From positions 1 through 64,000 of the forward strand of contig OZ024755.1 in assembly GCA_964016885.1 (NCBI GenBank): a DNA stretch of 64,000 nucleotides, read 5' to 3'. Position numbers and translations under genes: made by a program. Below are positions 24,601-60,456 of the stretch, one piece after another (positions within the stretch are counted from its first letter, which is position 1; each line of letters starts with the position of its first letter). The notes beneath the pieces are model-generated. The model had not been told where the DNA came from and did not search any database. It saw only the letters and a list, made by a program, of their open reading frames with translations. Source of the stretch: Eledone cirrhosa. Lineage: Eukaryota.

Positions 24601-24985
24601 TCAACTTCATCATACGTCCGCTTTTCCATGCTTGCAAGGGTGGGATGGGAGCTGATTCTGGATTGGTTTCTACAGCTGGGTGCCCTTCCTGACGCCAATC
24701 CCGTTTGCAGTGACTGGTGGGTGCTTTTTTTTCCGTGGCACCTCCACGTCAGCTTTACAGTGTGGGCTGGGTGCTTTTTTGCCGTGGCGCCTCCGCGTCC
24801 ACTTTGCGGTGGGGTGGTATGTGTATACCCAGCCCATTGTGATTTCCCAACCAGAAAAGCTTATAGCATCGTTCTTTACCCACGATGAATCTAGCAGACC
24901 CACGCCTCCACCTGGTCTCTTGAATACAAAAAACATCGACCTCCTTACGTTCAAGCATTTCTACAACCTCGTTAGAGCGACCCTG
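24601..24985 (-). mobile_element. Internally deleted RTE LINE, copy 2
   Basis: [47 protein letters not shown] fused to RTE 3' tail. Confidence 0.8.
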
Positions 24986-25012: not shown

Positions 25013-25071
<59 letters not shown>

Positions 25072-25123
25072 GTAAGTATGTATGTATACGTACATACATA
25101 TATGTATACAGACGTACAGTAGC

Positions 25124-25174
<51 letters not shown>

Positions 25175-25328
25175 CATGCAGGTACACATACATATATGCA
25201 CGCATCAGTTTAGCAGACGCTTATTATAGCGCTTGCTTTGTTCGTTTGTCAACAAACTGAACAGCCTGAATTTATGCCATACGGTGTTAAGGCAACCACG
25301 TCACCTTTTTGTTCAACACTGACACAGG

Positions 25329-25373
25329 AACGATGTACTAGTTTCAAGCTTGTTAGCTATCATCAGCACCGTT
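25329..25373 (-). ncRNA. Type I hammerhead ribozyme, copy 1
   Basis: AACGGUG CUGAUGA U AGCU AACA AGCU U GAAA CUAG UA^CAUCGUU; extended helix I spans 25311-25397. Confidence 0.85.
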
Positions 25374-25614
25374 TACCCATCTGCCAGATAGTTGAACGTT
25401 CGAAAGTACATACTTTCCTTATGAAAAATTAACGGCTGAGCAGCCTAATTTGCATATTGAGTGAGTTAAATCGGTCAGGCATACCGAAAACGATAAGTTG
25501 AAAAAAATGAAAACGAAAAACGAAATTTCATTTCTCACTCTTAGTATGGCACTTACTTAAATGTAAGTATGTATGTATACGTACATACATATATGTATAC
25601 AGACGTACAGTAGC

Positions 25615-25671
<57 letters not shown>

Positions 25672-25825
25672 CATGCAGGTACACATACATATATGCACGC
25701 ATCAGTTTAGCAGACGCTTATTATAGCGCTTGCTTTGTTCGTTTGTCAACAAACTGAACAGCCTGAATTTATGCCATACGGTGTTAAGGCAACCACGTCA
25801 CCTTTTTGTTCAACACTGACACAGG

Positions 25826-25870
25826 AACGATGTACTAGTTTCAAGCTTGTTAGCTATCATCAGCACCGTT
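25826..25870 (-). ncRNA. Type I hammerhead ribozyme, copy 2
   Basis: Identical to copy 1. Confidence 0.85.
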
Positions 25871-26111
25871 TACCCATCTGCCAGATAGTTGAACGTTCGA
25901 AAGTATATACTTTCCTTATGAAAAATTAACGGCTGAGCAGCCTAATTTGCATATTGAGTGAGTTAAATCGGTCAGGCATACCGAAAACGATAAGTTGAAA
26001 AAAATGAAAACGAAAAACGAAATTTCATTTCTCACTCTTAGTATGGCACTTACTTAAATGTAAGTATGTATGTATACGTACATACATATATGTATACAGA
26101 CGTACAGTAGC

Positions 26112-26158
<47 letters not shown>

Positions 26159-26312
26159 CATGCAGGTACACATACATATATGCACGCATCAGTTTAGCAG
26201 ACGCTTATTATAGCGCTTGCTTTGTTCGTTTGTCAACAAACTGAACAGCCTGAATTTATGCCATACGGTGTTAAGGCAACCACGTCACCTTTTTGTTCAA
26301 CACTGACACAGG

Positions 26313-26357
26313 AACGATGTACTAGTTTCAAGCTTGTTAGCTATCATCAGCACCGTT
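26313..26357 (-). ncRNA. Type I hammerhead ribozyme, copy 3
   Basis: Identical to copy 1. Confidence 0.85.
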
Positions 26358-26598
26358 TACCCATCTGCCAGATAGTTGAACGTTCGAAAGTATATACTTT
26401 CCTTATGAAAAATTAACGGCTGAGCAGCCTAATTTGCATATTGAGTGAGTTAAATCGGTCAGGCATACCGAAAACGATAAGTTGAAAAAAATGAAAACGA
26501 AAAACGAAATTTCATTTCTCACTCTTAGTATGGCACTTACTTAAATGTAAGTATGTATGTATACGTACATACATATATGTATACAGACGTACAGTAGC

Positions 26599-26643
<45 letters not shown>

Positions 26644-26797
26644 CATGCAGGTACACATACATATATGCACGCATCAGTTTAGCAGACGCTTATTATAGCG
26701 CTTGCTTTGTTCGTTTGTCAACAAACTGAACAGCCTGAATTTATGCCATACGGTGTTAAGGCAACCACGTCACCTTTTTGTTCAACACTGACACAGG

Positions 26798-26842
26798 AAC
26801 GATGTACTAGTTTCAAGCTTGTTAGCTATCATCAGCACCGTT
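26798..26842 (-). ncRNA. Type I hammerhead ribozyme, copy 4
   Basis: Identical to copy 1. Confidence 0.85.
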
Positions 26843-26982
26843 TACCCATCTGCCAGATAGTTGAACGTTCGAAAGTATATACTTTCCTTATGAAAATTAA
26901 CGGCTGAGCAGCCTAATTTGCATATTGAGTGAGTTAAATCGGTCAGGCATACCGAAACGTTCAACTATCTGGCAGATGGGTA

Positions 26983-27027
26983 AACGGTGCTGATGATAGC
27001 TAACAAGCTTGAAACTAGTACATCGTT
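26983..27027 (+). ncRNA. Type I hammerhead ribozyme, copy 5 (inverted arm)
   Basis: CTGATGA 26990-26996, GAAA 27011-27014, predicted cleavage after GTA (A27020); extended helix I 26959-27045. Confidence 0.85.
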
Positions 27028-27181
27028 CCTGTGTCAGTGTTGAACAAAAAGGTGACGTGGTTGCCTTAACACCGTATGGCATAAATTCAGGCTGTTCAGT
27101 TTGTTGACAAACGAACAAAGCAAGCGCTATAATAAGCGTCTGCTAAACTGATGCGTGCATATATGTATGTGTACCTGCATG

Positions 27182-27222
<41 letters not shown>

Positions 27223-27462
27223 GCTACTGTACGTCTGTATACATATATGTATGTACGTATACATACATACTTACATTTAAGTAAGTGCCATACTAAGAGT
27301 GAGAAATGAAATTTCGTTTTTCGTTTTCATTTTTTTCAACTTATCGTTTTCGGTATGCCTGACCGATTTAACTCACTCAATATGCAAATTAGGCTGCTCA
27401 GCCGTTAATTTTCATAAGGAAAGTATATACTTTCGAACGTTCAACTATCTGGCAGATGGGTA

Positions 27463-27507
27463 AACGGTGCTGATGATAGCTAACAAGCTTGAAACTAGTA
27501 CATCGTT
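27463..27507 (+). ncRNA. Type I hammerhead ribozyme, copy 6 (inverted arm)
   Basis: Identical; predicted cleavage after A27500. Confidence 0.85.
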
Positions 27508-27660
27508 CCTGTGTCAGTGTTGAACAAAAAGGTGACGTGGTTGCCTTAACACCGTATGGCATAAATTCAGGCTGTTCAGTTTGTTGACAAACGAACAAGC
27601 AAGCGCTATAATAAGCGTCTGCTAAACTGATGCGTGCATATATGTATGTGTACCTGCATG

Positions 27661-27713
<53 letters not shown>

Positions 27714-27830
27714 GCTACTGTACGTCTGTATACATATATGTATGTACGTATACATACATACTTACATTTAAGTAAGTGCCATACTAAGAGTGAGAAATGA
27801 AATTTCGTTTTTCGTTTTCATTTTTTTCAA

Positions 27831-27867
<37 letters not shown>

Positions 27868-27939
27868 GCATAGGAGCCACCATATGTATATATATATGTA
27901 TATATATATATGTATGTATATGTATGTGTATGTATATGT

Positions 27940-28270
27940 AGGCACATGGCTTAGTGGTTAGAGCATTGGCCTGGCAATCGAAAGGTTGTGAGTTCAATTC
28001 TCAGACCGGGTGATGTGTTGTTTCCTTGAGCAAGACACTTTATTTCACATTGCTCCAGTTTACTCAGCTGTAGAAATGAGATGATAGGGACTGGGGTCCA
28101 TATCATTCCACTGCAAAGTGGTTGTGGAGGTGCCACGGCAAAAAAGCACGCAGCACTCACTGTAAATGAGGTTGGTGTTAGGAAGGGCATCCAGCTGTAG
28201 AAATCTAGCCAGAATCAGTTCCCGTCGCACCCTTGCAAGCAGGGAAAAAGCGGACTTAAAATGATGATGA
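27940..28270 (+). mobile_element. Full-length tRNA-derived SINE with RTE-derived 3' tail
   Basis: tggcttagtggttagagc A box, gagttcaattc B box, ccttgagcaagacactt body; tail matches LINE 3' UTR at 50120-50210 and ends (tga)n. Confidence 0.85.
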
Positions 28271-37084: not shown

Positions 37085-39930
<2,846 letters not shown>

Positions 39931-39933
<3 letters not shown>

Positions 39934-40511
39934 GGTTTGAGGTTCACCACTGTATAGAGCTGGTCTATTCCGTAATGTAATAATATAGAGAGTACTCAAC
40001 GTAAAGCAGTTCAACCGTCTTTGCTTTTGTAGTTGGTGGTGCTAGTACGGAGTTAAATATTATAATGAAATGACAGGAGGCTGGATTTGTGTAAATCCTT
40101 GAAAGGTTTATTATACTATGATCATTTCAATGACCGGGTTCCGTATGAATCCGGTGATATCATCAGGTATTCGAAATATAATACGTGAATGTAATAGATA
40201 AAATCCATGGGGCTGAAAATCGAGGACCCGAGGGCGACCGCTATTCTGTTCCTTCAACCTCAGCCGGTCGCCCTCGAGTGACGTGGCTAAAGTTTACAGT
40301 GTACTACTACCGGTCAGATAAACGACAACAGAAAAGGATGGGAACATAAGTTAGCGTCAATCTCATGCCACAAGCTGAAAAGAAAGAAAGGAAGGAGAGA
40401 GAAGGGGGAAGGAAGAAGAGAAGCCAGGGTTAATGTCAGCTATAAGAAATGATCATAGTATAATAAACCTTTCAAGGATTTACACAAATCCAGCCTCCTG
40501 TCATTTCATTA
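39931..40511 (-). mobile_element. Penelope-like pLTR remnant with hammerhead and inverted 66-bp copy
   Basis: 40063-40128 is the exact reverse complement of 40446-40511; hammerhead plus AATAAA on minus; both ends abut (TA)n. Confidence 0.7.
40113..40170 (-). ncRNA. Type I hammerhead ribozyme (second family)
   Basis: AUAC CUGAUGA U AUCACCGG (13 nt) CCGGUCAU U GAAA UGAUCA UA^GUAU AAUAAA; palindromic AUGAUCAU helix III. Confidence 0.75.
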
Positions 40512-42687
<2,176 letters not shown>

Positions 42688-43959: not shown

Positions 43960-44508
43960 CACATATACATATAGATACACATACATACATATATACACAT
44001 ATACATATATATACACATATACATATATATACACATATATATATATATACACATATACATATATATACATATATACACACACATATATATATATATATAC
44101 ATATATATATACATACACATATATATATACATACACATATATACACATATATATATATATATACACATATACATATATATACATATATACACACACATAT
44201 ATATATATATATACATATATATATACATACACATATATATATACATACACATATATACACATATATATATATATATACACATATACATATATATATATAC
44301 ACATATATACATATATATATACACATATATACATATATATATATACATATATATATACACATATATACACATATATACATATATATATATATACATATAT
44401 ATATATTTATACATATATATACATATACATACACATATATACATACACATATATACATATATATATACATACACATATATATATATGTGTATATATATAT
44501 ATATATAT

Positions 44509-44548
<40 letters not shown>

Positions 44549-44775
44549 TATTCATACACATGTATATACATACATACATATATATACATACATATATACA
44601 CACACATATATATATATATATATACATATATACATACACATATAAATACATACATACATATATATATATATATACATATATGTGCATATATACATGCATA
44701 CATATATGTGTATATATATATATACACACCTATATATACATACATATATATATATACATGTGTGTATATATATAA
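43960..44775. repeat. (TA)n/(CA) compound microsatellite
   Basis: Direct reading. Confidence 0.97.
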
Positions 44776-46635: not shown

Positions 46636-47006
46636 TTATTTTCGCTTGGCAGAACTTGCAGAAGTTGGCCGCATGAAGGAAGATGGCGATGTGCCAGTTG
46701 TAGATGACAAAGATGAAGATGTGGTCCCATTGCCAGTTGTACCAACTGAGGCGGCAGCAGCAGCAGCAGCAGCAGCAGCAGAAAGATTTGAGCTGGAACG
46801 TGACAGTGGAATGGAACCAGTAACAGCTGTTAGGCTTCCAAGACTTCGTCGGTTGCCAGCATGGTAGCTGCTCAAGCCTGACAGATTAGTTTTTTTTGTG
46901 CCACGACGCCGTTTGTCCCAGATTAGTTTATCATGTCGCACAAAAATTCCATGTTTTGAACGACACTTGAAATAACGAGAACCATTCACTGAGCCATCGT
47001 TTTTAC
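46636..47006 (-). CDS. KIF13B: KIF13B/Khc-73-like kinesin-3, terminal coding exon (second half of CAP-Gly and tail)
   Basis: ttAG acceptor at 47008-47007; (G)KNDGSVNGSRYFKCRSKHGIFVRHDKL CAP-Gly motif; TAA at 46636-46638. Confidence 0.85.
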
Positions 47007-47043
47007 CTAAAAAAAACAAAAAGAAAAGGTTATTCATAAAATT

Positions 47044-47790
47044 ATTAGCAGAAAATATCTAAAAACAGTTTTATTAATATTAATTCAAATGTTTATAGTA
47101 TTTTTTACTAATAGGTCATCATCATCATTTAACGTCCATTTTCCAAGCTAGCATAGATTAGACAAGCAGTCCTATCAGGTGACCATGTCTTGCTCACACA
47201 GAACTGTTTCTGGCTTGGTTTCTATGGCTGGATGCCTGTGAAAATTTACAGTTTTAGAGTAAGGGCTTGAATTTTTAATGTGATGCAGCTTTAGTACTGT
47301 TTTGTACTTTTCAATAATATTTTGTTAATATAATTTCATACTGTCTAACCTGTGCAAGCATGGAAAAAAAGATGATGATGACTGTACAGGAGGACATTAA
47401 CTTTTAACATCCTATAACAAATTAGCAGAAAATATCTAAAATGGTTTGTTAATACAAATGTTTATAGTAGCTTTCCTAGGGGGCAAATCAATGTGAAAAT
47501 TTACAGTTCTTGAGTAATGACTTGAATTTAGAATGTGATGCAGCAATTGTTCTATTTTGTACTTTTCAATAATTTTTGCTTATATAGTTTCATTTTAACA
47601 TCATGTAACAATTTAGGAGAAAATATCTAAAACAAGTTTGTTAATTCAAATGCTTATAGTATCTTTACTAGTGGGCAGATCATTGTGAAAATGTACAGTA
47701 TTAGAGTCAAGACTTGAATTTTTAATCAGATGCAGCCATAGGGTTGTATACTTTCCAAGAATGTCTTGCTAATACGGTTTCATGCAGTAC
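47044..47790. repeat. Three diverged ~190-bp intronic tandem copies, the first interrupted by RTE-tail fragments
   Basis: attagcagaaaatatctaaa..gtgaaaatttacagt..cttgaattt..gatgcagc at 47044, 47421 and 47611. Confidence 0.75.
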
Positions 47791-47949
47791 AGTATATTTA
47801 TTATGAGTTAATAATTGCGTATATGAAAGCAGACAATATGTTTATGTATAATAAAGCATACTATGGGTGTTTCAAGCTATGATCATCAGCTTAAAAAAAT
47901 GCATAGGGAAACATGTATGTTTATTATACATGAATTATACATTAATTTA

Positions 47950-50323
47950 CTAGAGGCGACGGATGAGGTCTGTGGCTGGAGTAAGACCTCAAGCAGGAGG
48001 AGAGTGACTTGGTGATGGAACAATAAGGTAGATGAAGCAGTTAAGGCCAAGAGACAGGCATGGAAAGAATGGAAGAATGGGGGGAGCAGGGTACATTACA
48101 TAGAGACCAAGAGGGAAGCTAGGCGACATGTATACTTAGCTAGGAGGGAAGCAGAGAATAGAAAATTCAAGCATGTTTTGCAACGTCAGGACCAGAAACA
48201 GGACGTATTCAAGATTGCGAGGCAGTGTGTCAGAGATAGTTGTGATGTCATTGGAGAGAAGTGTATCCGGAATGATAAAGGTGAGCTTGCCCTCACAAGT
48301 GCTGAGAAGAAAGATGCATGGAAGAGTCATTATGATAGATTACTAAATGAGGAGAATGTATGGGGAAGAAGAGACCCTTCCCCAAGTAGACCCTATAGAG
48401 GGGCCAGCAGTACAAGTCAGCAGCAACGTAGTAAGTAAGGCAATCAAAGATATGAAGATGGGGAAGGCAACCGGTCCATCGGGTATAGCTGCCGAGATGC
48501 TGAAGGCATCTGGGTCTGTAGGTCACACTATAACCACACGTATTGTTAACCAGGTAATACTAGAAGGTGTCATACCAAAAGATTGGTGCAGTAGCATCAT
48601 TGTCAACTGCTACAAAGGTAAAGGCGATGCACTAGATAGAGGAAACTATAGAGGTATAAAGTTGATGGACCAGGTCATGAAAGTAACAGAAAGAGTTATA
48701 GCACAGTTGATTAGGGACCGGGTGGAAATAGACGAGATGCAATTTGGGTTTGTACCAGGAAGAGGCACCACTGATGCCCTCTTCCTTGTGAGGCAATTAC
48801 AGGAAAAGTACCTAGCTAAAAGTAAGCCACTCTACTTGGCATTTGTCGACCTTGAGAAAGCCTTTGACAGAGTTCCACGTGCTGTAATCTGGTGGGCTCT
48901 TAGAAAACTAGGAGTAGATGAATGGCTTGTGAAAGCGGTACAAGCCATGTATAGGGGATCAGTCAGCAAAGTTAGGATTAGCAATGAGTATAGCGAGGAA
49001 TTTAGCGTACAGGTTGGGGTCCACCAGGGCTCTGTTCTTAGCCCCCTCCTGTTCATCATAGTCCTGCAGGCAATAACGGAGGAGTTTAAGACCGGATGCC
49101 CATGGGAACTCCTGTATGCTGATGACCTCGCACTCATAGCTGAATCTATGGTAGAACTAGAGAATAAATTCCAAACTTGGAAGCAGGGACTAGAAAGAAA
49201 GGGTCTCAAAGTCAACATGACAAAGACTAAGGTCCTTGTAAGTAGACAAGAAAACAGAACCCAGATCCCCTCAGGAAAATGGTCTTGCTCAGTATGTAGG
49301 AAAGGTGTAGGTAGGAACTCCATTCTCTGCCGCAAATGCAAACAATGGGTACACAAGAGATGTAGGGGGATCTCAGGAAGCTTAATTAAGAATGTAGGCT
49401 TCACATGCAGCAGCTGTGATGAGACAGCAAGCAGCAAACAGCCACAGGAAACAAGTACCACCAATCTCTGGGAGGGCTCTGTAGAAACAGTAGACAGCTT
49501 CTGCTACCTAGGTGACCGAATTAGCAGCGGAGGTGGGTGTTCACAAAGTACAATAACTAGGGTAAGAATGGGATGGAAGAAGTTTAGGGAACTACTACCA
49601 CTGCTAGCTGCAAAAGGCTTCTCCCTCAGAATGAAAGGCAGACTGTATGATGCGTGTATCCGAACAGCGATGTTGCATGGTAGTGAGACCTGGGCACTGA
49701 AGGTGGAAGACTTACATAGATTAGAGAGAAACGAAGCCTGCATGTTCCGATGGATGTGTAACAGTATATACATGAACGACAAAGCATAAATGAATTGAGA
49801 GAGAGACTGAGCATAAGAGGAATCAAATGCTGTGTGCAGGAGAGGCGGTTGCGCTGGTATGGACATGTGATGCGTATAAAGGATGACAGCTGCATAAAAA
49901 GGTGCAGAGCACTAGAAGTTGATGGAAACCGCGAGTGGGGAGACCCAAGATGACCTGGGATGAGGTGATAAAAGCCGACCTTACCCAATTACACCTCTCA
50001 AAGGCAATGACACACGACCGTGACTTCTGGCGTCACGCAGTAATACAGAGTACCCGACCTCCCATGGGTACAAGCTGAAGCATATGCCCCCACTCCCCCC
50101 ACCGCAAGGTGGACGTGTAGGCGCCACAAAAAAGCACCCAGCACTCACTGTAAATGAGGTTGGTGTTAGGAAGGGCATCCAGCTGTAGAAATCAAGCCAA
50201 ATCAGTTCCTGTATGAGCAAGGCATGGTCAGCCGACCAGACACTGCCCACAACAGGACAACCCGTCTAACCCATGCTAGCGGGGAAGAAAGGAGGTAAAA
50301 CGGTGATGATGATGATGATGATG
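47950..50323 (+). mobile_element. 5'-truncated RTE LINE, antisense in the last KIF13 intron
   Basis: RT ORF 48347-49789 with YADD and a PHD-like insert; frameshifts; 3' UTR and (gat)n tail. Confidence 0.95.
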
Positions 50324-50624
50324 AACATATTGTCTATCCCAGGTACCTTTTTCAAACAGTGAGCCACATAGGATGTGGCTCATCATAAGGTGGGCTGCAC
50401 TACTAAAAAGTTCAAGGCAATTTGAAATTAGGTAACCAAACAGGTCCATGACTGGTCTGTTTTCATATATGCCTCTATTAACTGATAATATCCTTTACTG
50501 CATGAAACTACATTAGCAAGACATACTTGTAAAGTATTGTACATGTTTTCACATGCACCTCTATTATAAATGTTAGTGATACTGCTAATTAAAGAGTTTG
50601 TTTTGAGCCTGGAGAGTCATCAGG

Positions 50625-50870
50625 CCTGTGTGTCGCAATTTCTATGGTATTAAGCAACTGAGAGTACAAAGCTCCCTGCTGAACAGGAGGCCAATCTATC
50701 ACATGGCTAAACCTCCAGCTATTACTGGTACTCATTTTCAGTTGACTCTACTGGAGCAACATGAAATTAAATGTTTTGCTCAAGAACACAACCCACAACC
50801 CAATAAAGGAACCAAAACCATAACATTATGATCGTAAGTCCAACACCCTTTCCACAAGGCAACATGCGTC
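50625..50870 (-). mobile_element. SINE between two copies of a ~125 bp local duplication
   Basis: ctggagcaacatgaaattaaatgttttgctcaagaacac body; 50461-50585 resembles 50879-51010. Confidence 0.65.
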
Positions 50871-51203
50871 TATTTTGCTTTCATATATGCCTCTTTTAAC
50901 TCATAATATCCTTTACTGCATGAAACTACAATAGCAAGATATGCTTGTGAAGTATTGTACATGTTTTCATATACACCTCTATTATGAATCACACTATGTT
51001 AGTGATACTTAGATAGCTGTGACATGATCACAACTTAAAACATTTGAACATTTGTAGTGAGACTCAATATATGTTTATTTCAACACAAACATATTGTACA
51101 TGCTTTCATATACACTTCTATTATGTATGAACCATACTATGCTAGTGTTACTGCTTATTAAGAATTAAGTATAATTTAATAAAATAAAAGAAATTGAACA
51201 TAC

Positions 51204-51416
51204 CTTCAGGATTGTCTAGTTCAATTCCGATCCAGATTCCACTGGCAAAGTGAACTGGACCAATAAACTGAACAATCCCAGGCTTAGAGTATCCCTTAGA
51301 GGACGTGACGATTACACCTTCTCCTTGTTGGATCCAAGTGGGTAGAGGGCCTTCATGGAGACGGTCCAGGTCAGCACGGCTTCCAAACGAACATAAACTC
51401 ATACTGTCTTCTCCAC
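51204..51416 (-). CDS. KIF13B: KIF13B-like exon (first half of CAP-Gly)
   Basis: AG/GT bounded, 213 nt, phase 1-1; LPTWIQQGEGV..GIVQFIGPVHFASGIWIGIELDNPE joins in frame to GKNDG. Confidence 0.88.
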
Positions 51417-52930
51417 CTTTGAAAGAAGAGAAAGAATAAACCAAAGCAATACATAAGAAATGGAAGAAGGTAACAGATTTTATGGCAAGCTACAAGATAG
51501 TAACATATGTAAGGGAGAGGGAAAAAGATATATATATATATATATATAAAGGCACAGTTCTAATCACTAACCATGTACCTTTAATAATCTAATAAAACAA
51601 AGTACCTGGACATGAACTTATTGCCTTGGTCCAATTGGTTATTTTATCTCCATAACAACAGCAATAAAAAAAAGGAAAAAGAGAGGGAAAGAAAGGGAGA
51701 GAGAATGAGGGAGAAATAAATATATATATATATATGAGAGAGAGAGACTGGAAATATTCTTAGATTTAGAACATCAATACCTACATATTTTCATAAAAAT
51801 TTGTTACATTTTAAAACTACCACTGTACTAGTGGATAGTAGATTTATCTATGCAATCAGTTTTGGCTGGAAAATTTGCAGCATGACTTTTTACAAACAGA
51901 TCTATAATCTTAAGTGCTATCAAAGATCTTGTCAGAAATGTAAAACTGGTTTATTTTTAACTAAAATTTAAAAGAAAAATTCATGTTTCTTAGATTCATT
52001 TTTGGATATAACGAGTAAAATTTAATCAATTCATGGAGGACACATTTCCTATATTTATTAAAAGTAAAATTGAACAGCTGTCATAGATAAGAGCCTTAAC
52101 AGTAAATAAAATAAATAAAAGTGCCTGTACATTGATTTTGCTTGTGAATGGCAACATGTTTCAAAAGAGATTTCTTCAAATATTAACTTTTCAAAAATGT
52201 GGTTAATATTTTGAAGTATGTAATAAATGATCATAAATTTCAGAAAGCTGGTTCAATGTAGTAGAAATATATAAAGGGTAAAGAATAGCAAATAAAACAA
52301 AGTGATGTTTTACCCAATATATTTCAACATGACATTTCAGGGCTAATATCCTCTTTTCATATGTAAAAATGAAAACGGTTCAAAACAAAAACAATCGATT
52401 TGTTCTTCCTTAACTGGTCTAAGGGTCTAGAATACGCATGTGTGGAGCAGTTATGATAGCCACTTTACTCTGTGCAGTTATCTATTATTCGTTTGAAGTA
52501 TGTACATGTTTGGCAAGTGACTTAATCTGAGTAAGACCATGTTTTGTAAATGAGGAAATTTTACTGTGGCATGAGCATTTTACTCATTTCTTATTATTAG
52601 TCACTTATAGATATGTGCATGTGTGTTTGTACTATAAATAAATGTAATTTATAATAACAATAATATAGTGTTGTCTCAGGTTCCTATGAAAACACAGACA
52701 ATTCTAAATAACAAAAAAGCATTTTGGTATTTTAACACCTCTAATATATATTTTGAGCCCTAGATTCAGCTGGATTTGAGCTAAGAGCACAGAGAGCTGG
52801 AATAACAACTGAGGCATTCAATCCAACACTAACAACTCTGCCAATTCATTGCCTATAAATAAAAATCAATTTAGAATACAAAGAAATCATTTAAAAATAC
52901 AAGTTGAGAATTTCAGTGAAATCAACATAC

Positions 52931-54296
52931 CTGACAAAGTCTCGTTTGATGTAGACATATTCATGTTTTGATAGGAAAGGTCTTTCATGGAGGAGGATGA
53001 TGTCATTTCACTGCCACTTGGCAGAGAACATGAAACGGGGCGTCTTTTATGGGCAGAACCATGACTAAGATTCCTCTTTAGATGTCCCTCTACAGTCCGT
53101 TTATCGGAGTTATTCTTGCGTTCAAGGCTATTTGCAGAGTAGGATTTGGAGTCACTTCTTGGTGTGTTCTTCTTTGGATTGTCAGTCATGTTGCTATTAA
53201 TATTGGTAGAGGAATCAGTAAGTAGTTTTCTGTTGATGGGCTGATTGGAATTACCTTTGGCAACAATTTGCTTGCATTGTTTACTATCTGTTGTCAAATC
53301 AGGGTGTGTATTATTTAGTTTATTGAGATCATCCATAGTAGTCTCATTATAAGAATCTTCCCAGTCACAGCTGTGTGAGATGGAAGTATTGGAGTCCTGT
53401 TCGTTATCGTCAACTGATTGGGTCTTTTTTAGGGGTGTACTTTGGCCCTGAGGTGATGACATCTCATAGTCCATATCCTGCAAACTGTTGCTACCTTCAT
53501 CTTCCAACAGTGAGTTATGTGAATGTAACATTTCAGAAGTATTGACAAAATCCGACAGATTTAAGTTTTTGGTGGCGTTTGCAAGTGCCTGGCTGTTGTA
53601 ATCTACATCTTTGTAACTGAACTCTTGGTCCTGACTCGGATGTGAGACTGGATTCATAGTAGCATCATTGACTGAGGAGCTATCCAGATCCATTAAAGTT
53701 GACTTTGAAGATCTGTGGTTGTCCATTGATGCTTGTAAAGTATCACTGAAATCATTGCTTTGATTTAGTATGTAGGAAAAATCAGAATCATCTTGTTCAT
53801 TGTTGTCTGAAACAATATTACCATTAATTAGATCAGCCAGGCGGGCAGCAGAAACAGCTTGGTCAGCAATGGAATCAAGGGAAAAGCTTTTCATAGGGGC
53901 CTTATCAGGGATACTTTCCAAACCTTGGTCACTAAGTGGTGTTGGAAATGTTTTTGGAGGACTGTTCTTCCCTTCGGCAGAGGCTTCATCAAGGTTGATA
54001 CTCCGAATACTAACAGAGTCCTCAGATGATAAGGTGAGAGTAGAAACTGCTTGTGAACCATAGCCACTAGAAGTCATGCTGGGAGTAAAACTTTTTGTTT
54101 GAATCTCCATCAAACTATCAGCAGTCACAGAATGGGATATAGTTGTGGGCCTCTGAGCCACAAACTTTTCAGCAAAAGGAGATGAATGCTGGCTCTGATA
54201 AGACTCGAATTCCTGAAAATCATCGCTGTCAACACTATTGGGATCCTTGTTAAAAATACTGTGCTTGTGTGCCATATCAAAATCCTCATCAAAATC
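52931..54296 (-). CDS. KIF13B: KIF13B-like large Ser/Asp-rich tail exon
   Basis: 1366 nt open frame, phase 0-1, tattcgtAG acceptor and G|GTATG donor; SMTSSGYGSQAVS motif recalled from invertebrate Khc-73 tails. Confidence 0.85.
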
Positions 54297-54932
54297 CTAC
54301 GAATAAAAAATATGAGACCCACTTAAAATTAGAATTTATGAAGGATTAAATTTAGAAAAAAAGAAAAAGAAAAAAGATTGAGTCAAAATTTAGAGAATGC
54401 AATATTTGAACAAATTCAAAAATTCAAAAATTATTTTGGACCAATGTTGTTTATACATTTATACAGGGGTAATGCTATACATTTTATAGCTTTTTGAAAC
54501 AGCTTTGAGCTAAATTTGAATAATTGAGTTGCAAATTGTTCTCTATGACTACATTACTAATTAATTAAATCAATTTAAACATCTGTATAGATCTAGTAAG
54601 CCATTACAGAATAGGGGGAAATATCAAGCACTCCTTACAGCTGAGAAACACAAAAAAAACAAAACAAGATAGACAGAGATAAGTGAAACTAAAAATAAAA
54701 TTAACAAAACCTTCATAATCTAATGTCTTAATATCTTTTAAATATGAACATATTGAGATATTGAAGTATATCTTTGAATTTTACATAAGTTGGTGGTGTT
54801 TTAGCTTTTAGTGAGGGGAAGATATAGTAAGAATATTCAGAAGAGCTTTATTATTTTAAAAATGAATGAGATTGAAGAAAGACCCATCTAAATTATGGAT
54901 TAAGCATTCATTTGTAAAGTGAGATTATTTAC

Positions 54933-55051
54933 CTCTTCGGTGTCCTGCTGTAGAAGAGGCTTCCGTTCTCGTTGCTGTTGCTCTTCTTGGAGAGTTCTCA
55001 ATGGTTTTACTGCTTTCGACGCATGAGGGCTAATTGTGGATTTTGGTGTCG
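54933..55051 (-). CDS. KIF13B: KIF13B-like exon
   Basis: 119 nt, phase 1-0, tttAG acceptor and GAG|GTAAAT donor; TPKSTISPHASKAVKPLRTLQEEQQQRERKPLLQQDTEE is in frame with the next exon. Confidence 0.75.
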
Positions 55052-55479
55052 CTAAAGTGAACAATTGGAGAATAGAAAAGGTCACAAAACAGAAACTTCA
55101 ATAAATTTATCTTAAAAAATATATAAAAACAAGGCAGAGTACACAGAAATTATTTAAATGTTTAACCTTTTGATATGAAATTGACTGAAACTGGCTCTAT
55201 GATATGAAACTGCCCCTGGTTCTATGATACAAAGCTGTCTATTGTAAATTGTTTATATTTATCTAAAACCTTCCACCATAATTTAACCTTTGTTAAACTA
55301 TGTTCCAAAAAACAATAGTTATATTACTAAATCCTCCCCAAATTCTTGATTAATTTCAAAATGATCTGAAAATTATAGGCAGTGTTTTTTTTTAGAAATA
55401 TGGTAACAAAAGGGTTAGATTTCCAATTTTATCTATTTACAACCAAATATTAAAACAATATTCAAATATTTTATCCATT

Positions 55480-55865
55480 GATATAATCACAGTATGTGCC
55501 TGTGTACAAAGTGTGATGCTGAATAATGAGATATGGGCATTGAATACAGAGGATGTGTGAAAGTTAGAAAGAAATGAGACCAGTAATATCCAATGGATGT
55601 ACATGAGTAATGAAACAGACAAGTTGAAGGTAAAACTGGGTAATAAATGTAGTGTGCAAGAGAGAAGATTGTACTGGTATGGACATGTGATGTATATGGA
55701 TGATGATCATAAAGGGGAAGGAAGCTACAGAAGAGGAAGACTGAAGAAAAACTGGGCAGAAGTGGTGAGAGCTGATCTCAATACTGAGGAGATGACAAAG
55801 GAAAATGATAAGTGGAAGAAAACTGTGCTGGAGAAGACGTGTATTATCTATCCAAGCATGAGAAA
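55480..55865 (+). mobile_element. Highly decayed RTE 3' fragment
   Basis: VQERRLYWYGHVM..RRGRLKKNWAEVVRADL. Confidence 0.7.
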
Positions 55866-56234
55866 AGTGAACATAAGTATAAAGAGTGAGTTGCTTCATG
55901 GTAATGAGACATCAGCCAAGAATATGGATGATCTGGAGAATAAATGCGGTATGTATGATCCATGGGATGTGTTAGTCTACTTGAAAGGCAAAGGACAAGT
56001 GAATTGAGAATTATAGAGCATTAACCCTTTTAATAGCAACCTTAGTTTTATGACACATAACTGCTTTTTTTAAAGTGTTTTCAATTAAACCTTCCATCAT
56101 AATTTTATGAAAAGAACATTTGATTAAACACTAGCTTAATAATGATAAAGTTAAGCTAAATACCTTCAATTTTTTTTTATTCAAAATAAATTGAAACATA
56201 TGGGCTATAACATTTTGGTGTTGTTGTTCTGTTC

Positions 56235-56470
56235 TAAGTGGAAGGCTCATCAGGCTTTTTCTTGATCAGAGTACAAGACTCTCTCTGGACAGGATGCTGG
56301 TCTATTGCAGGATTAACTCACCAGCTATTTCTGGTACTCACTTTCAGCTGAGTGTACTGGAGCAAGGTGAAATGTTTTCCTCAAGAACACAACACAGCAG
56401 CCTGTCCAGGAATCAAACCGATGGCATTACGATCTTACGTTAAGCATCCTAACCATTAGGTCATGCACCT
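56235..56470 (-). mobile_element. tRNA-derived SINE
   Basis: Same body as 50625-50870 and 27940-28080, reversed. Confidence 0.65.
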
Positions 56471-57124
56471 ATACATTTCATTGGTAACAAAAAGGTTAAA
56501 GACATTAGCTGAAGTGTGCAAGAAACACAACTGTGTTGGTATGTATATGTTATGCATATGGATAATAATGAATGATGAGTGAAAAAGTGCTGTAACAAGA
56601 GAGACAAAAAATAAAAAGACAAAGGAAGCAGTTGTGATGTCAGATATCAAGGTACTGAGCTTCACATAAAAGAACAATGAAGACTGTGATAATTGCTACA
56701 ATGATTGTTAAAACACTGAGCCTTACAAAAGAGATGACAACAGATTGTGAGTATTGGAAATATGGTGTATAATAGAGTGAGACCAACATGAAAAAAGAGA
56801 CATAAAAATGTTGTTGATCGATAATGGTTTGAACTGTTTCTATAAAAAGAAATCTGTGATACTTAGGTATAATCAACACCTTCATATACATACATTGAAG
56901 TAAACAGAAAGAAAAACATGCTGCTTATGTCTACACTAAAAATCAAAGAATTCAATTCTTTTTTAGGGCATCATTCTCAAGACACATCTGTGGGCTTATG
57001 AGTATGAGTGGTGTGCAAGAAGTAACAAGAGAAGCAATGTCTAGTGAGCAGAAGGGCAAAACAACAGGGTTGCTTTTCTAATGGAGATTTGTAGTTAGAG
57101 AATGTGGGCCTATGAGCTCGCAAA

Positions 57125-57320
57125 AGCCACTGTTAGGAGACCCAGGAGTAGACCCTGAGTAAGATGGTTGGATAACATTTGTGAGCTTGGCCGGTCTCGC
57201 TTGGGGACCCAGTCGGATCAATTGGAAATAGTTGCTTCTGACTGGACCCGATGGAAGGAGTATTTGAGGACACTTCCCCCACTGACCCTCTCAGGAATAA
57301 GTGGGCAAAGAAAAAAGATC
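57125..57320 (+). mobile_element. RTE (Expander-like) 3' end fragment
   Basis: Similar to 21050-21240. Confidence 0.7.
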
Positions 57321-59240
57321 TACAAGCTTATGTGAAACATGGAATTTCACATTGATAGATTACACAGCTAGACAACAGTGTTATTTAGGGTAGGATTGGC
57401 AAGGTAAGCAATTGTATGTGTCCCACCTACAAGCTATTCTGGGTTTTGCATGAGCTTGTAGATTCATGTGCACTAACTGGATCTCTTTCCCCATGAGGAA
57501 AGAGTTCCTGCCGTTTTGCCTTTCCATTCTTACATGATGTTGTTTCTCTTGTTATTTGTTGCATGTCACCTATAACCTCCCAAACATCAAACATACAACA
57601 AATCATTTTTACAAATAAAAACAATTATTGTTCTAATACAAATAATCAATGAATGAAAAATACAACACAGATATTTCTAATGATACAAGACAAAGATCTT
57701 GGGTTGGAAAACAATCCAATAGGGGACTCAATGTAGACATGCAAAATATCTGAAAAGAAGAAAAATTACAAAAATTGTGCTTCTATTAGAAAATGTTGAA
57801 GCCACTAAAAATTTGAATATGTTTGTGTGGTGCCTACTTCCAGACAGGTGGACTGGTCGACAAACAATTAACTGAATATAAAATATTACTGGTAACAAGA
57901 CAATCTACTAACTCATTGGTTGACTGACAATAATTTATCAGCCTGGCAATCTCTGGCTCTTAGAGAACTTTATTGTTAGTTCAAAACTTTCTTTCTCCCC
58001 CACCTCTCTCACATACAGACATACACCTCTGAGTTGGACCTCCATCAGTTCTAATGATGTGTGCTTCAGTTGTTGAAACAACAAAACAGTCCGCATATAA
58101 AATTAACATGCAAGTGACTGAGATTCCACAAATAGATGTACACTTACCATAGTTCATAGGGAGATTCAGTGTGAATGTATGAACATGAAATAAAGTGTCT
58201 TGCTCAAGGACACAATACAGCGTTGGAAATCGAACTGATAGCATTACACCCTAATCAGAAAGCTACATGCCTTTACTGTATTCTAATAATGTATATAATT
58301 CTGTTTTTGCTTTTGATACACCTAGGTTAATTGTGGCAGGAAATGTGTAATTACTTTTTTTTTTTTTTTAGAACAAAGTCTATCTGTGGTGGCAGAGGTG
58401 GATGTGATGACTATGTTGGTGCTGGTGGTGTAATAACTTACAATGCACCATCGTAAATTGAACTGATAACCTAATGATCATAAGCCAAATACCCTAACCA
58501 CTAATCGCATGCCTTCACGCATGCACATACATATGATAGTTAGAATCAGTCCACACTTCTAAATTTGTGTCGTGGTTGAGATGATAATGGACTGAGAAGA
58601 GTGGAAATTTGTCCCACTTCACTCCTTATCCAACCCAGCATGAAAAAAAAACAATTGTTCTTATAATGATGATATGGATGATGACAATAGTGAGTTATAG
58701 TATACCCAATATAGAACTGCAAAAATTAGCTGTGGTAGTAAGCATAAGATCATTGGTGAAATCACATGAGTAAATATTAAATATTAAGCTTCTTTATTTG
58801 TTAAAATATTATGGGTGGATGGTATATAACCCCTCTCCTGATAGAGTTGTAGGGATGCTGTAGTGGTATACAGTGTTTCTTGGACATTTTATAGCTTGGT
58901 GGAGACCATCTCTCTCCAGGTCTGAATACACAAAATTTCTTCCAGAGAAGGATAGAGTGAGAGAATGAGAGATATAGATGAAGACTCGACTGGTACCCTT
59001 TTTTTTTATCTTTAAGAAACTCCAATGCCATGATAAGAGTAAAACTATAATTTGCTGATATTAACAATCCCTTCTAACCATGCATTATCATATATGATAA
59101 AGAGGTGACTGTACATAAGAGAGATGCAGATCCCTTGCCTGTTCGGGAGATCAGTATCACAACTGACTTGGTCTATGTAGACCCATTAAACCCTTGATAG
59201 CATGGAAAGTGGATGTTATGATGATGATAATAAGAAAATA

Positions 59241-59527
59241 CAGTGGGACCTTGGTTCACGAACGCCTTTCATCACAAATGGTGTCTTGAGTAAATAAACA
59301 CGCAAGCTGGCAACAAGGGTTGGTGACAAGCTTGGTGTATCAGTGGGAAAGCATCACTTGTTGTGTAGTTAGTTACTATGGTGATATCTGTCTTTCACAA
59401 ACAGTCTCTCTCTTACTGTATTTCTCTTTCAACATTTCGTATGGGAAAAATAGTTTCGGTTTACAAACATTTTGGACAATGAATGGCCTTCAGGAATGAA
59501 TTAAGTTTGTGAACTGAGGTTCCACTG
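59241..59527. mobile_element. Tigger-like MITE
   Basis: TIRs cagtgggaccttggttcacgaac / gtttgtgaactgaggttccactg with TA on both sides. Confidence 0.8.
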
Positions 59528-59782
59528 TATTTCTTTGATAATAAATTAGAAAGGAAATGACTTTTTTATGTAAGTGAAGCAACATTTCTTTTGATAATCA
59601 AGCAGCATGCTCAATATAAAAATACCATACCTGTCAATTAGATTAAATATACATAATATATAGCATACACATATTTTTTAATGATTTAATAAAAATGGAA
59701 ATAAAAGTGAATATGTCGAGACTAACAGAGAAAGGAATTGGAGGATGCATTTGGTAAAAAAAAAAATGCGAGAACCACTCAC

Positions 59783-59830
59783 GTTCTGGGGGTTTAGATA
59801 TCCACTGTCCAAGTTGTCCTAGCAGAGCGT
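59783..59830 (-). CDS. Candidate 48-nt KIF13B-like exon
   Basis: tcacAG acceptor and C|GTGAGT donor; open in phase 1-1 (ALLGQLGQWISKPPE), compatible with the exon at 55051. Confidence 0.5.
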
Positions 59831-60456
59831 CTGTGATAACAAATATATATTTGTAGGCAGTTCTCTAATAGCTATACTAAATAATTTACTTGATGGCAAA
59901 AAACTGTTTATAAAGGAACTTTATACTGAAACCAAAACCAATAATGATTTTAAGGTTCATATTAATATATAATGATAAATGTACCAAGATGGATGTAACT
60001 GGATGTAAATTTATCAATGAGGATAGATTTACTCAGAAATCTTAAATATAATCAAGGCCAAACTCAGGTTTAGCAACGTGTGTGGTGACCATTTCATCTG
60101 CAATTGCATTTGTGATGAAAACACATCGCAAATAATAAAATTCTCTAATGTGTAAAAATGAAGTTAATGTGTTAAAAGAAAAAAAATGAAAAGGTTAAGT
60201 TATTAAAACATTAATAGAATAATAACAATGTTGTATGTATTAAAACATTCATGTAATTTTTTTAGAAATAGAAATAACAAAAATGATCATAATTATATTA
60301 AACATTAATGAGTAAAAAAAGAAACAACATTTTACAACTGACTTAACAACTTGAGATGGAGACAAAAGAACATTCCATGCTTGTTAGAGAAGTGGTAAGA
60401 AAAAATCACATCAAAATATATATCACTAATTTGATACAAAACACTTTTATAGTAAA

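What the first reader, a model, noticed from the sequence alone, without database searches (positions are those of the whole stretch)
25068..27835. Six-hammerhead tandem array: a young retrozyme-like element predicted to make ~0.49-kb self-cleaved or circular RNAs
Seen: every unit contains AACGGUG-CUGAUGA-U-AGCU(AACA)AGCU-U-GAAACUAGUA^CAUCGUU. That gives an intact catalytic core, a 7-bp helix I extended by three more paired blocks (UGGG/CCUG, CUGGCA/UGUCAG, GUUCAAC/GUUGAAC; 87 nt in total), a 4-bp helix II and a minimal palindromic helix III (ACUAGU). Units are nearly identical, have no credible ORF and sit in (TA)n. Established: minimal type I hammerheads with palindromic helix III occur in tandem in Penelope-like pseudo-LTRs, newt satellite 2 and metazoan non-LTR retrozymes, cleave as dimers and can yield circular RNAs. 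Inference: this is a recently active non-autonomous family releasing 497/487/485-nt (minus) and 480-nt (plus, 27021-27500) monomers, each with a variable internal (UA)n hairpin. I do not recognise it as a described family.
Basis: partly seen in the sequence, partly recalled or inferred. Interest (0 to 1): 0.9.

Follow-up and report, generated by a model that had tools for sequence, protein, structure and literature searches.

The report
Octopus retrozyme with Penelope insertion signature
A 0.48-kb non-coding repeat carrying a hammerhead (self-cutting RNA) motif sits in thousands of copies in an octopus-type genome, inserted into TA microsatellites as two back-to-back arms in the same pattern as the genome's intact Penelope-like jumping genes, so it is likely their parasite (a retrozyme, a known class), and its self-cutting and RNA circles are predicted but not shown.

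Summary
The six hammerheads, cut sites and monomer lengths are confirmed. The locus is not a plain tandem array: four units on the minus strand and two on the plus strand meet head to head, with (TA)n on both sides.

The exact 44-nt ribozyme occurs 8,284 times in the genome. Insertions end at two fixed points 64-70 nt apart, far from the ribozyme cut. One arm takes each end in 12 of 14 inverted copies from a position-ordered sample. This is the Penelope-like element (PLE) "inverted arm plus tail" signature. Two young Neptune/Nematis-type PLE families with intact 775-aa RT-endonuclease frames show the same anatomy, but neither is homologous to the unit.

Verdict: a non-autonomous PLE passenger, i.e. 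a metazoan non-LTR retrozyme, and a new member of a known kind. Both arms of an insertion carry the same monomer variant, which fits rolling-circle copying but also an uncut uniform multimer. No RNA data were found. Helix II lacks the usual G10.1-C11.1 pair. The scan has already noted this kind of element on other DNA.

The parts
25017..25066 (.). Left (TA)n target microsatellite
   Evidence: Sequence; tandem repeat scan
25067..26957 (-). Minus arm: 5' partial unit (unit positions 328-480), full monomers of 485, 487 and 497 nt, and a 3' partial unit ending at the short (S) end, unit position 259
26956..26957 (.). Inversion junction with a 2-nt overlap between the 5' ends of the two arms
26956..27835 (+). 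Plus arm: 5' partial unit (416-480), full 480-nt monomer (27021-27500), and a 3' partial unit ending at the tail (T) end, unit position 323-324
27771..27834 (+). PLE-type tail, present at this end only; 64 nt here, 64-70 nt across copies; includes a predicted hairpin and a pyrimidine tract
   Evidence: tail concept from PMC11167929
27760..27775 (+). Small predicted hairpin that holds the S ends (unit positions 253, 256, 259); the homologous hairpin holds them in the older subfamilies and in sister family E
26959..27045 (+). Type I hammerhead motif with extended helix I; predicted cut between 27020 and 27021
27439..27525 (+). Type I hammerhead motif; predicted cut between 27500 and 27501
26780..26866 (-). 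Type I hammerhead motif; first base after the predicted cut 26804
26295..26381 (-). Type I hammerhead motif; first base after the predicted cut 26319
25808..25894 (-). Type I hammerhead motif; first base after the predicted cut 25832
25311..25397 (-). Type I hammerhead motif; first base after the predicted cut 25335
27182..27219 (.). Internal variable (TA)n tract of one unit (each unit has one); the main source of the monomer length differences
27836..27864 (.). Right (TA)n target microsatellite

Best explanation
This is one insertion of a high-copy, non-coding, hammerhead-bearing repeat that is likely mobilised in trans by a Penelope-like (Neptune/Nematis-type) RT-endonuclease, probably copying a self-cut, circularised monomer RNA. 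Shown: head-to-head arms in (TA)n, two fixed 3' ends 64-70 nt apart with one at each arm, thousands of young copies, a covarying fold, and intact PLE frames with the same anatomy in the same genome. Inferred steps: (1) an array is transcribed, probably by read-through, since no promoter was identified; (2) neighbouring hammerheads pair through the palindromic helix III and cut as a dimer, and monomers are ligated into circles (about 50% likely); (3) a PLE protein nicks both strands of a (TA)n tract and starts reverse transcription at two internal sites, S and T; (4) each cDNA runs a variable number of units; (5) the two cDNAs are joined by short microhomology or a small insertion.
For: End rule, counted among inverted copies: 28 of 32 in a score-selected sample (one read by eye), 12 of 14 in a position-ordered sample, where all 7 single-orientation copies also end at S or T, 8 of 9 in older subfamilies and 6 of 8 in sister family E. 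Internal control: autonomous PLE family F4 shows one S and one T end in 8 of 8 inverted loci with both ends read, and family F3 in 7 of 8; their tails are about 61-63 nt. Both have many intact 775-aa frames at 98-100% identity and RT plus GIY-YIG domains. Frangieh 2024 (PMC11167929, parts 1-2 of 4) showed in vitro that a PLE protein cuts and extends both strands of AT-rich DNA and starts at two internal RNA sites that bound the tail. One template per insertion: substitutions between monomers average 0.84 within an arm, 1.0 across arms and 7.7 between loci; one family-E locus has 18 identical full monomers (6 minus, 12 plus) in the stretch fetched. 141 of 143 ribozyme junctions are exact. Junctions: 15 of 27 resolved have 1-7 nt overlap, 2 are blunt, 10 have unmatched bases. 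Structure: 29 of 125 pairs change on both sides against 7.4 in shuffles; helix I pair 3 occurs as G-U, U-G, U-A and A-U.
Against: No homology links the unit to F3 or F4; best hits are at chance level, and none of 50 GIY-YIG loci was continuous with it, so the partner is not identified. Against the circle step: Frangieh 2024 found hammerhead cleavage unnecessary and uncut RNA the dominant template in vitro; only 1 of 9 Xenopus retrozyme dimers cleaved; helix II lacks the G10.1-C11.1 pair that Cervera 2014 calls highly conserved. Some arrays show two-, three- or four-unit periodicity (L222, L234, L096, L104), which a monomer circle cannot give. Monomer lengths differ within the window array (480-497 nt). 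The covariation rests on 9 related sequences, with many double changes coming from the one family-E sequence, and the structure was derived from the same alignment. Target-site duplications cannot be read in (TA)n.
Confidence: 0.8

Rival explanations
1. Same PLE-driven insertion, but the template is an uncut linear multimeric transcript of a uniform parent array; the hammerhead is slow or acts at another step, and no circle is involved.
For: Uncut RNA was the dominant substrate for the anole PLE in vitro. Exact junctions and within-locus uniformity are equally expected. Variants shared by a subset of units in both arms (L234, L217) and higher-order periodicity (L222, L096, L104) fit multimeric templates. 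U opposite U at the base of helix II suggests weak cleavage.
Against: Copying linear templates with 5' truncation can only shorten arms, yet arms of 12-14 full units exist in very young insertions (L132, L232, L234). The catalytic core and the helices flanking the cut are kept across diverged families. Related animal retrozymes accumulate as circles (PMC7229834).
Confidence: 0.4
2. Solo PLE end fragments (pLTR stumps) were inserted once and then grew locally as satellite DNA by slippage or unequal crossover, as Li et al. 2026 discuss; the unit is not itself mobile.
For: Higher-order periodicity in older arrays shows that some local duplication or conversion occurs. Li 2026 proposes this route.
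Against: The unit-to-unit junction is not an insertion end. No copy joined to a PLE frame was seen among the loci fetched. Thousands of near-identical copies are dispersed over many chromosomes. Both arms of an inversion are multimeric and share one variant.
Confidence: 0.08
3. The array is an assembly expansion, or the hammerhead is a chance motif.
For: Identical tandem units can be mis-counted by assemblers; the copy number of this one array was not checked against long reads.
Against: Units in the window differ in TA length and by a point change. The reversed-pattern control has 0 matches. A short-read DNA run at about 21x single-copy depth holds the unit at very high summed depth (it may be the source sample). 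Compensatory changes are seen.
Confidence: 0.02

Closest known systems
Metazoan non-LTR retrozymes (Cervera and de la Pena 2020, PMC7229834: parts 2-3 of 6 and passages read, supplements not read; Li, Clavereau and Pollet 2026, 10.64898/2026.07.22.740005: parts 1-3 of 5 read, supplements closed)
   Same: Non-coding tandem units of a few hundred bases, one type I hammerhead each, low GC, thousands of copies, strongly self-paired predicted monomer, co-occurrence with PLEs. U-U at the base of helix II recalls axolotl HHR_Amex2.
   Different: The unit (480 nt) is slightly above the 150-450 bp range given in 2020 but inside the 51-972 bp range of 2026. Helix I is a long open stem, not a short looped one. 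Neither main text describes inverted arms or tails for retrozymes ('inverted' 0 hits in the 2020 paper; 'tail' 0 hits and 'inverted' only in a reference title in the 2026 paper). Circles are shown there, not here.
Insertions of endonuclease-bearing Penelope-like elements (Craig et al. 2021, passages; Frangieh et al. 2024, PMC11167929, parts 1-2 of 4)
   Same: Partial tandems, an inverted 5'-truncated arm, a tail at one end only, AT-rich or (TA)n targets, ends downstream of the hammerhead at internal start sites.
   Different: No ORF. The tail is 64-70 nt rather than the 30-40 nt cited, though autonomous families of this genome also have 61-63 nt tails. Both arms can be many units long.
Non-autonomous Chlamys PLEs such as MRC1 of Chlamydomonas (Craig et al. 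2021, passages)
   Same: [quoted passage not shown]
   Different: Those generally share 3' sequence with an autonomous family, and N-terminal-endonuclease PLEs are described there as lacking hammerheads. Here there is a hammerhead and no homologous autonomous family was found.
Minimal dimer-acting PLE hammerheads (Cervera and De la Pena 2014, PMC4209133, passages)
   Same: Palindromic vestigial helix III, predicted dimer cleavage.
   Different: Lacks the G10.1-C11.1 pair in this family (present in sister family E); much longer helix I.

Membership tests
Metazoan non-LTR retrozyme | Tandem non-coding units of a few hundred bases, each with a type I hammerhead | tested here: met
   longest ATG frame 54-56 aa
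Metazoan non-LTR retrozyme | Multi-copy and dispersed in an animal genome that also holds PLEs | tested here: met
   8,284 exact ribozymes; octopod host inferred from the neighbouring KIF13A exon; PLE frames
Metazoan non-LTR retrozyme | No LTR, PBS or PPT organisation | tested here: inconclusive
   No LTR-type direct terminal repeats around an internal region in the loci read; PBS and PPT were not searched for explicitly
Metazoan non-LTR retrozyme | Highly self-paired monomer | tested here: met
   Circular fold z -8.9 (A), -11.8 (B), -13.0 (E) against 25 shuffles each, inflated in A by the (TA)n tract; covariation
Metazoan non-LTR retrozyme | Self-cleavage of the transcript | not testable with these tools
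   Needs in vitro transcription; core present, G10.1-C11.1 absent
Metazoan non-LTR retrozyme | Accumulation as linear and circular monomer RNA | not testable with these tools
   No RNA holder listed; only contigs could be laid
Non-autonomous Penelope-like element | Inverted 5'-truncated arm | tested here: met
   32 of 37 fully seen score-selected loci; 14 of 21 position-ordered insertions
Non-autonomous Penelope-like element | Tail at one end only, bounded by two fixed 3' ends | tested here: met
   28 of 32 and 12 of 14 inverted copies
Non-autonomous Penelope-like element | Microsatellite or AT-rich target shared with autonomous PLEs | tested here: met
   (TA)n flanks in this family and in F3 and F4
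Non-autonomous Penelope-like element | Sequence similarity to the pLTR of an autonomous family | tested here: inconclusive
   Not found in 50 GIY-YIG loci or in the F3 and F4 units, but only 150 of 10,596 GIY-YIG candidates were scored
Autonomous Penelope-like element | RT plus GIY-YIG open reading frame | tested here: not met
   No frame above 56 aa in the array
Plant-type LTR retrozyme | Type III hammerhead in LTRs | tested here: not met
   Type I topology in tandem units

The most novel reading that the evidence does not exclude
A PLE protein copies a ribozyme-made monomer circle round and round from two structure-defined start sites, one on each strand of the nicked microsatellite, producing two multimeric arms. 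The passenger RNAs are recognised by a conserved fold (the S hairpin and the tail hairpin) without sequence homology to their carrier. This would be genomic evidence, with a ready-made enzyme and substrate pair, that PLE reverse transcriptases use circular templates and mobilise unrelated retrozymes in trans.
Probability: 0.3. Interest if true: 0.65.

Novelty: new member of a known kind. Interest (0 to 1): 0.4.

Why it matters
Which enzyme moves animal retrozymes, and whether the template is a circle, is still open. The 2020 paper names PLEs only as a strong candidate; the 2026 preprint adds co-occurrence and pLTR homology but leaves the mechanism open. Here the passengers' insertion scars match those of intact, young PLE families in the same genome, end for end. 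That gives a concrete protein and RNA pair for the in vitro assay already published for the anole element. The element is also a large recent source of palindromic insertions in an octopod genome (at least 24,591 ribozyme copies in this family group). The class itself is known, so the gain is mechanistic support and a test system, not a new kind of system.

Tried and rejected
Rfam: no match at gathering score. The miRNA hits come from the (TA)n hairpin and were rejected.

Partner search: a DNA search with the 196-base ribozyme-side part returned nothing, probably because its words are too common; this is not evidence of absence. Copies found near PLE frames (L071, L075, L055) are separate insertions divided from the frames by (TA)n or unrelated DNA. 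A pattern excluding the family's helix II returned mostly mutated older copies. F3 and F4 units show only chance similarity.

Expression: no RNA holder listed; this says nothing on expression. Run X1 proved to be genomic DNA, since contigs run through intron and exon at even depth. Runs X4, X5 and X6 gave too little cover to classify.

Literature: searches for hammerhead/retrozyme/octopus, penelope/hammerhead/cephalopod, octopus/penelope/non-autonomous/neptune, retrozyme/penelope/inverted/microsatellite and octopus/hammerhead ribozyme listed no paper describing this family. Repbase, Dfam, subscription journals and the supplements of the 2020 and 2026 papers were not seen and may list it. PMC10886601 (passages) was irrelevant.

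Priming by long base-pairing to the internal (UA)n tract was considered and rejected: none of the 35 outward 3' ends maps there.

Rows left out of counts: L114 (cut by the fetch); L234-L236 (picked for length) from the tally; five F4 loci and L249/250 without both inverted ends in view; L282/283, L289 and L290.

Full report
Observation. The 87-nt motif folds better than all 200 shuffles. Rfam does not recognise it at gathering score. There is no ATG frame above 56 aa. The array is a head-to-head inversion: a minus arm 25067-26957 and a plus arm 26956-27835 share two bases at the junction and run outwards into (TA)n. Unit positions below count from 27021.

Host and context. The neighbouring gene is KIF13A; its long exon is 89-90% identical to Octopus proteins and 85% to Argonauta, so the host is likely an octopod. 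The last coding exon ends at 46639 on the minus strand, about 19 kb from the array. The genome is 3.0 Gb.

Family size and age. The exact 44-nt ribozyme occurs 8,284 times, against 0 for the reversed control. A degenerate pattern covering older subfamilies gives 24,591. A pattern for a different helix II gives 5,467 matches, of which 97 of the first 100 listed belong to a diverged sister family, E, with a 466-468 nt unit. Score-selected monomers differ from their consensus by 1.9 substitutions in 432 columns (83 of 92 monomers aligned). A set that adds position-ordered loci differs by 7.7 between loci, so the young family has several close variants.

Insertion anatomy. Outward 3' ends fall at two places: S (unit 253-259, in a small hairpin) and T (unit 322-325). 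In 38 score-selected loci, one was cut by the fetch, 5 are single-orientation and 32 are inverted; 28 of the 32 have one S and one T end. In the first 20 regions along the largest chromosome (21 insertions), 14 are inverted, 12 of them S plus T, and all 7 single-orientation copies end at S or T. Older subfamilies give 8 of 9 and family E gives 6 of 8 at homologous positions. Either arm may be the longer one and either may carry the tail. Neither end is near the ribozyme cut. Of 27 resolved inversion junctions, 15 overlap by 1-7 nt, 2 are blunt and 10 have unmatched bases (many junctions were not resolved by the exact-match method).

What this signature is. Craig et al. 2021 describe PLE insertions as partial tandems with an inverted 5'-truncated copy and a tail at one end (passages). 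Frangieh et al. 2024 show that a PLE protein cuts and extends both strands of AT-rich DNA and starts reverse transcription at two internal RNA sites that bound the tail (parts 1-2 of 4). The genome supplies an internal control. GIY-YIG frames are abundant; most of the 50 examined carry the upstream cysteine motif that Craig assigns to Neptune and Nematis (no tree was built). Two families, F4 and F3, have many intact 775-aa RT-endonuclease frames at 98-100% identity. Their inverted insertions show one S and one T end in 8 of 8 and 7 of 8 loci with both ends read, with tails of about 61-63 nt, in (TA)n. They are candidate carriers. Neither is homologous to the unit, and copies lying near PLE frames are separate insertions.

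RNA structure. Across nine monomers of subfamilies A, B, D and E and four further older copies, 95.5% of cells pair and 29 of 125 pairs change on both sides, against 7.4 in shuffles. The structure was derived from this alignment and the sequences are related, so this is supportive and not a formal test. Helix I pair 3 is G-U, U-G, U-A or A-U in 365 of 370 ribozyme reads from partly overlapping loci. Helix III is a six-base palindrome that can only form between two ribozymes, as described for PLE hammerheads. This family lacks the G10.1-C11.1 pair; family E has it. Weak cleavage is therefore possible.

Template. Monomers differ by 0.84 substitutions within an arm, 1.0 across arms and 7.7 between loci. 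One E locus has 18 identical full monomers over both arms in the stretch fetched. 141 of 143 ribozyme junctions are exact. Arms reach 12-14 full units in young insertions. This fits rolling-circle copying of one monomer, the model proposed by Cervera and de la Pena. It also fits an uncut transcript of a uniform array, the dominant substrate in the anole assay. Two-, three- and four-unit periodicities in some arrays show that multimeric templates or later duplication also contribute. I put circle against linear at about even odds.

Expression. No RNA run was listed. Run X1 is genomic DNA and holds the unit at very high summed depth; the other runs could not be classified. Nothing here shows transcription, cleavage or circles.

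Comparison and novelty. The element meets the sequence-level definition of a metazoan non-LTR retrozyme (PMC7229834) and the insertion-level definition of a non-autonomous PLE. Li et al. 2026 already argue that these are one thing. Five literature searches listed no description of this family, but Repbase, Dfam and the supplements were not seen. The scan has noted the same kind of element in this genome and in others; a look-up by sequence found nothing. Verdict: new member of a known kind, interest 0.4.

Noticed in passing
L146:125-590 and loci: Sister family E: 466-468 nt unit, about 5,400 ribozyme copies, G-C at the base of helix II, GUU cut triplet, no internal (TA)n, arrays with about 20 ribozymes over two arms. 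A cleaner substrate for experiments than the window's family.
   Followed up: yes
L249 (G000:C4:322.58 Mb) and loci: Young autonomous PLE family F4: 4.2-kb unit with a 476-aa upstream frame overlapping a 775-aa RT-endonuclease frame, a minimal hammerhead, and tandem and inverted full-length copies, most over 99% identical.
   Followed up: partly
L061, L270-L290: Young autonomous PLE family F3 with intact 775-aa frames. Its hammerhead-like motif has an altered core (no canonical CUGA), as do families F1 and F2.
   Followed up: partly
L063, L066, L070, L073, L041, L076, L053: At least three further short hammerhead-bearing repeats lie beside PLE ends, one with a helix III long enough to fold as a monomer.
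   Followed up: no
L096, L104, L222: Older arrays show four-unit or two-unit higher-order periodicity of variants, pointing to multimeric templates or later segment duplication.
   Followed up: partly
L120, L121, L111, L131, L266: Copies of this family often sit in the (TA)n that flanks the end of an autonomous PLE insertion, giving nested clusters at shared targets.
   Followed up: partly
window 46639-59843 (minus strand): 3' exons of a KIF13A kinesin gene with a split CAP-Gly domain; an intron holds an RT fragment of a LINE (48347-49789) with a PHD-like zinc finger.
   Followed up: partly
window 37086-42687 and 43963-44774: Very long degenerate (TA)n/(TACA)n tracts, the first about 5.6 kb.
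   Followed up: no
window 27938-28260 and 24602-24960: Interspersed repeat fragments flank the array beyond the (TA)n tracts; the right one begins with a tRNA-like head typical of a SINE (my reading from recalled consensus, not tested).
   Followed up: no
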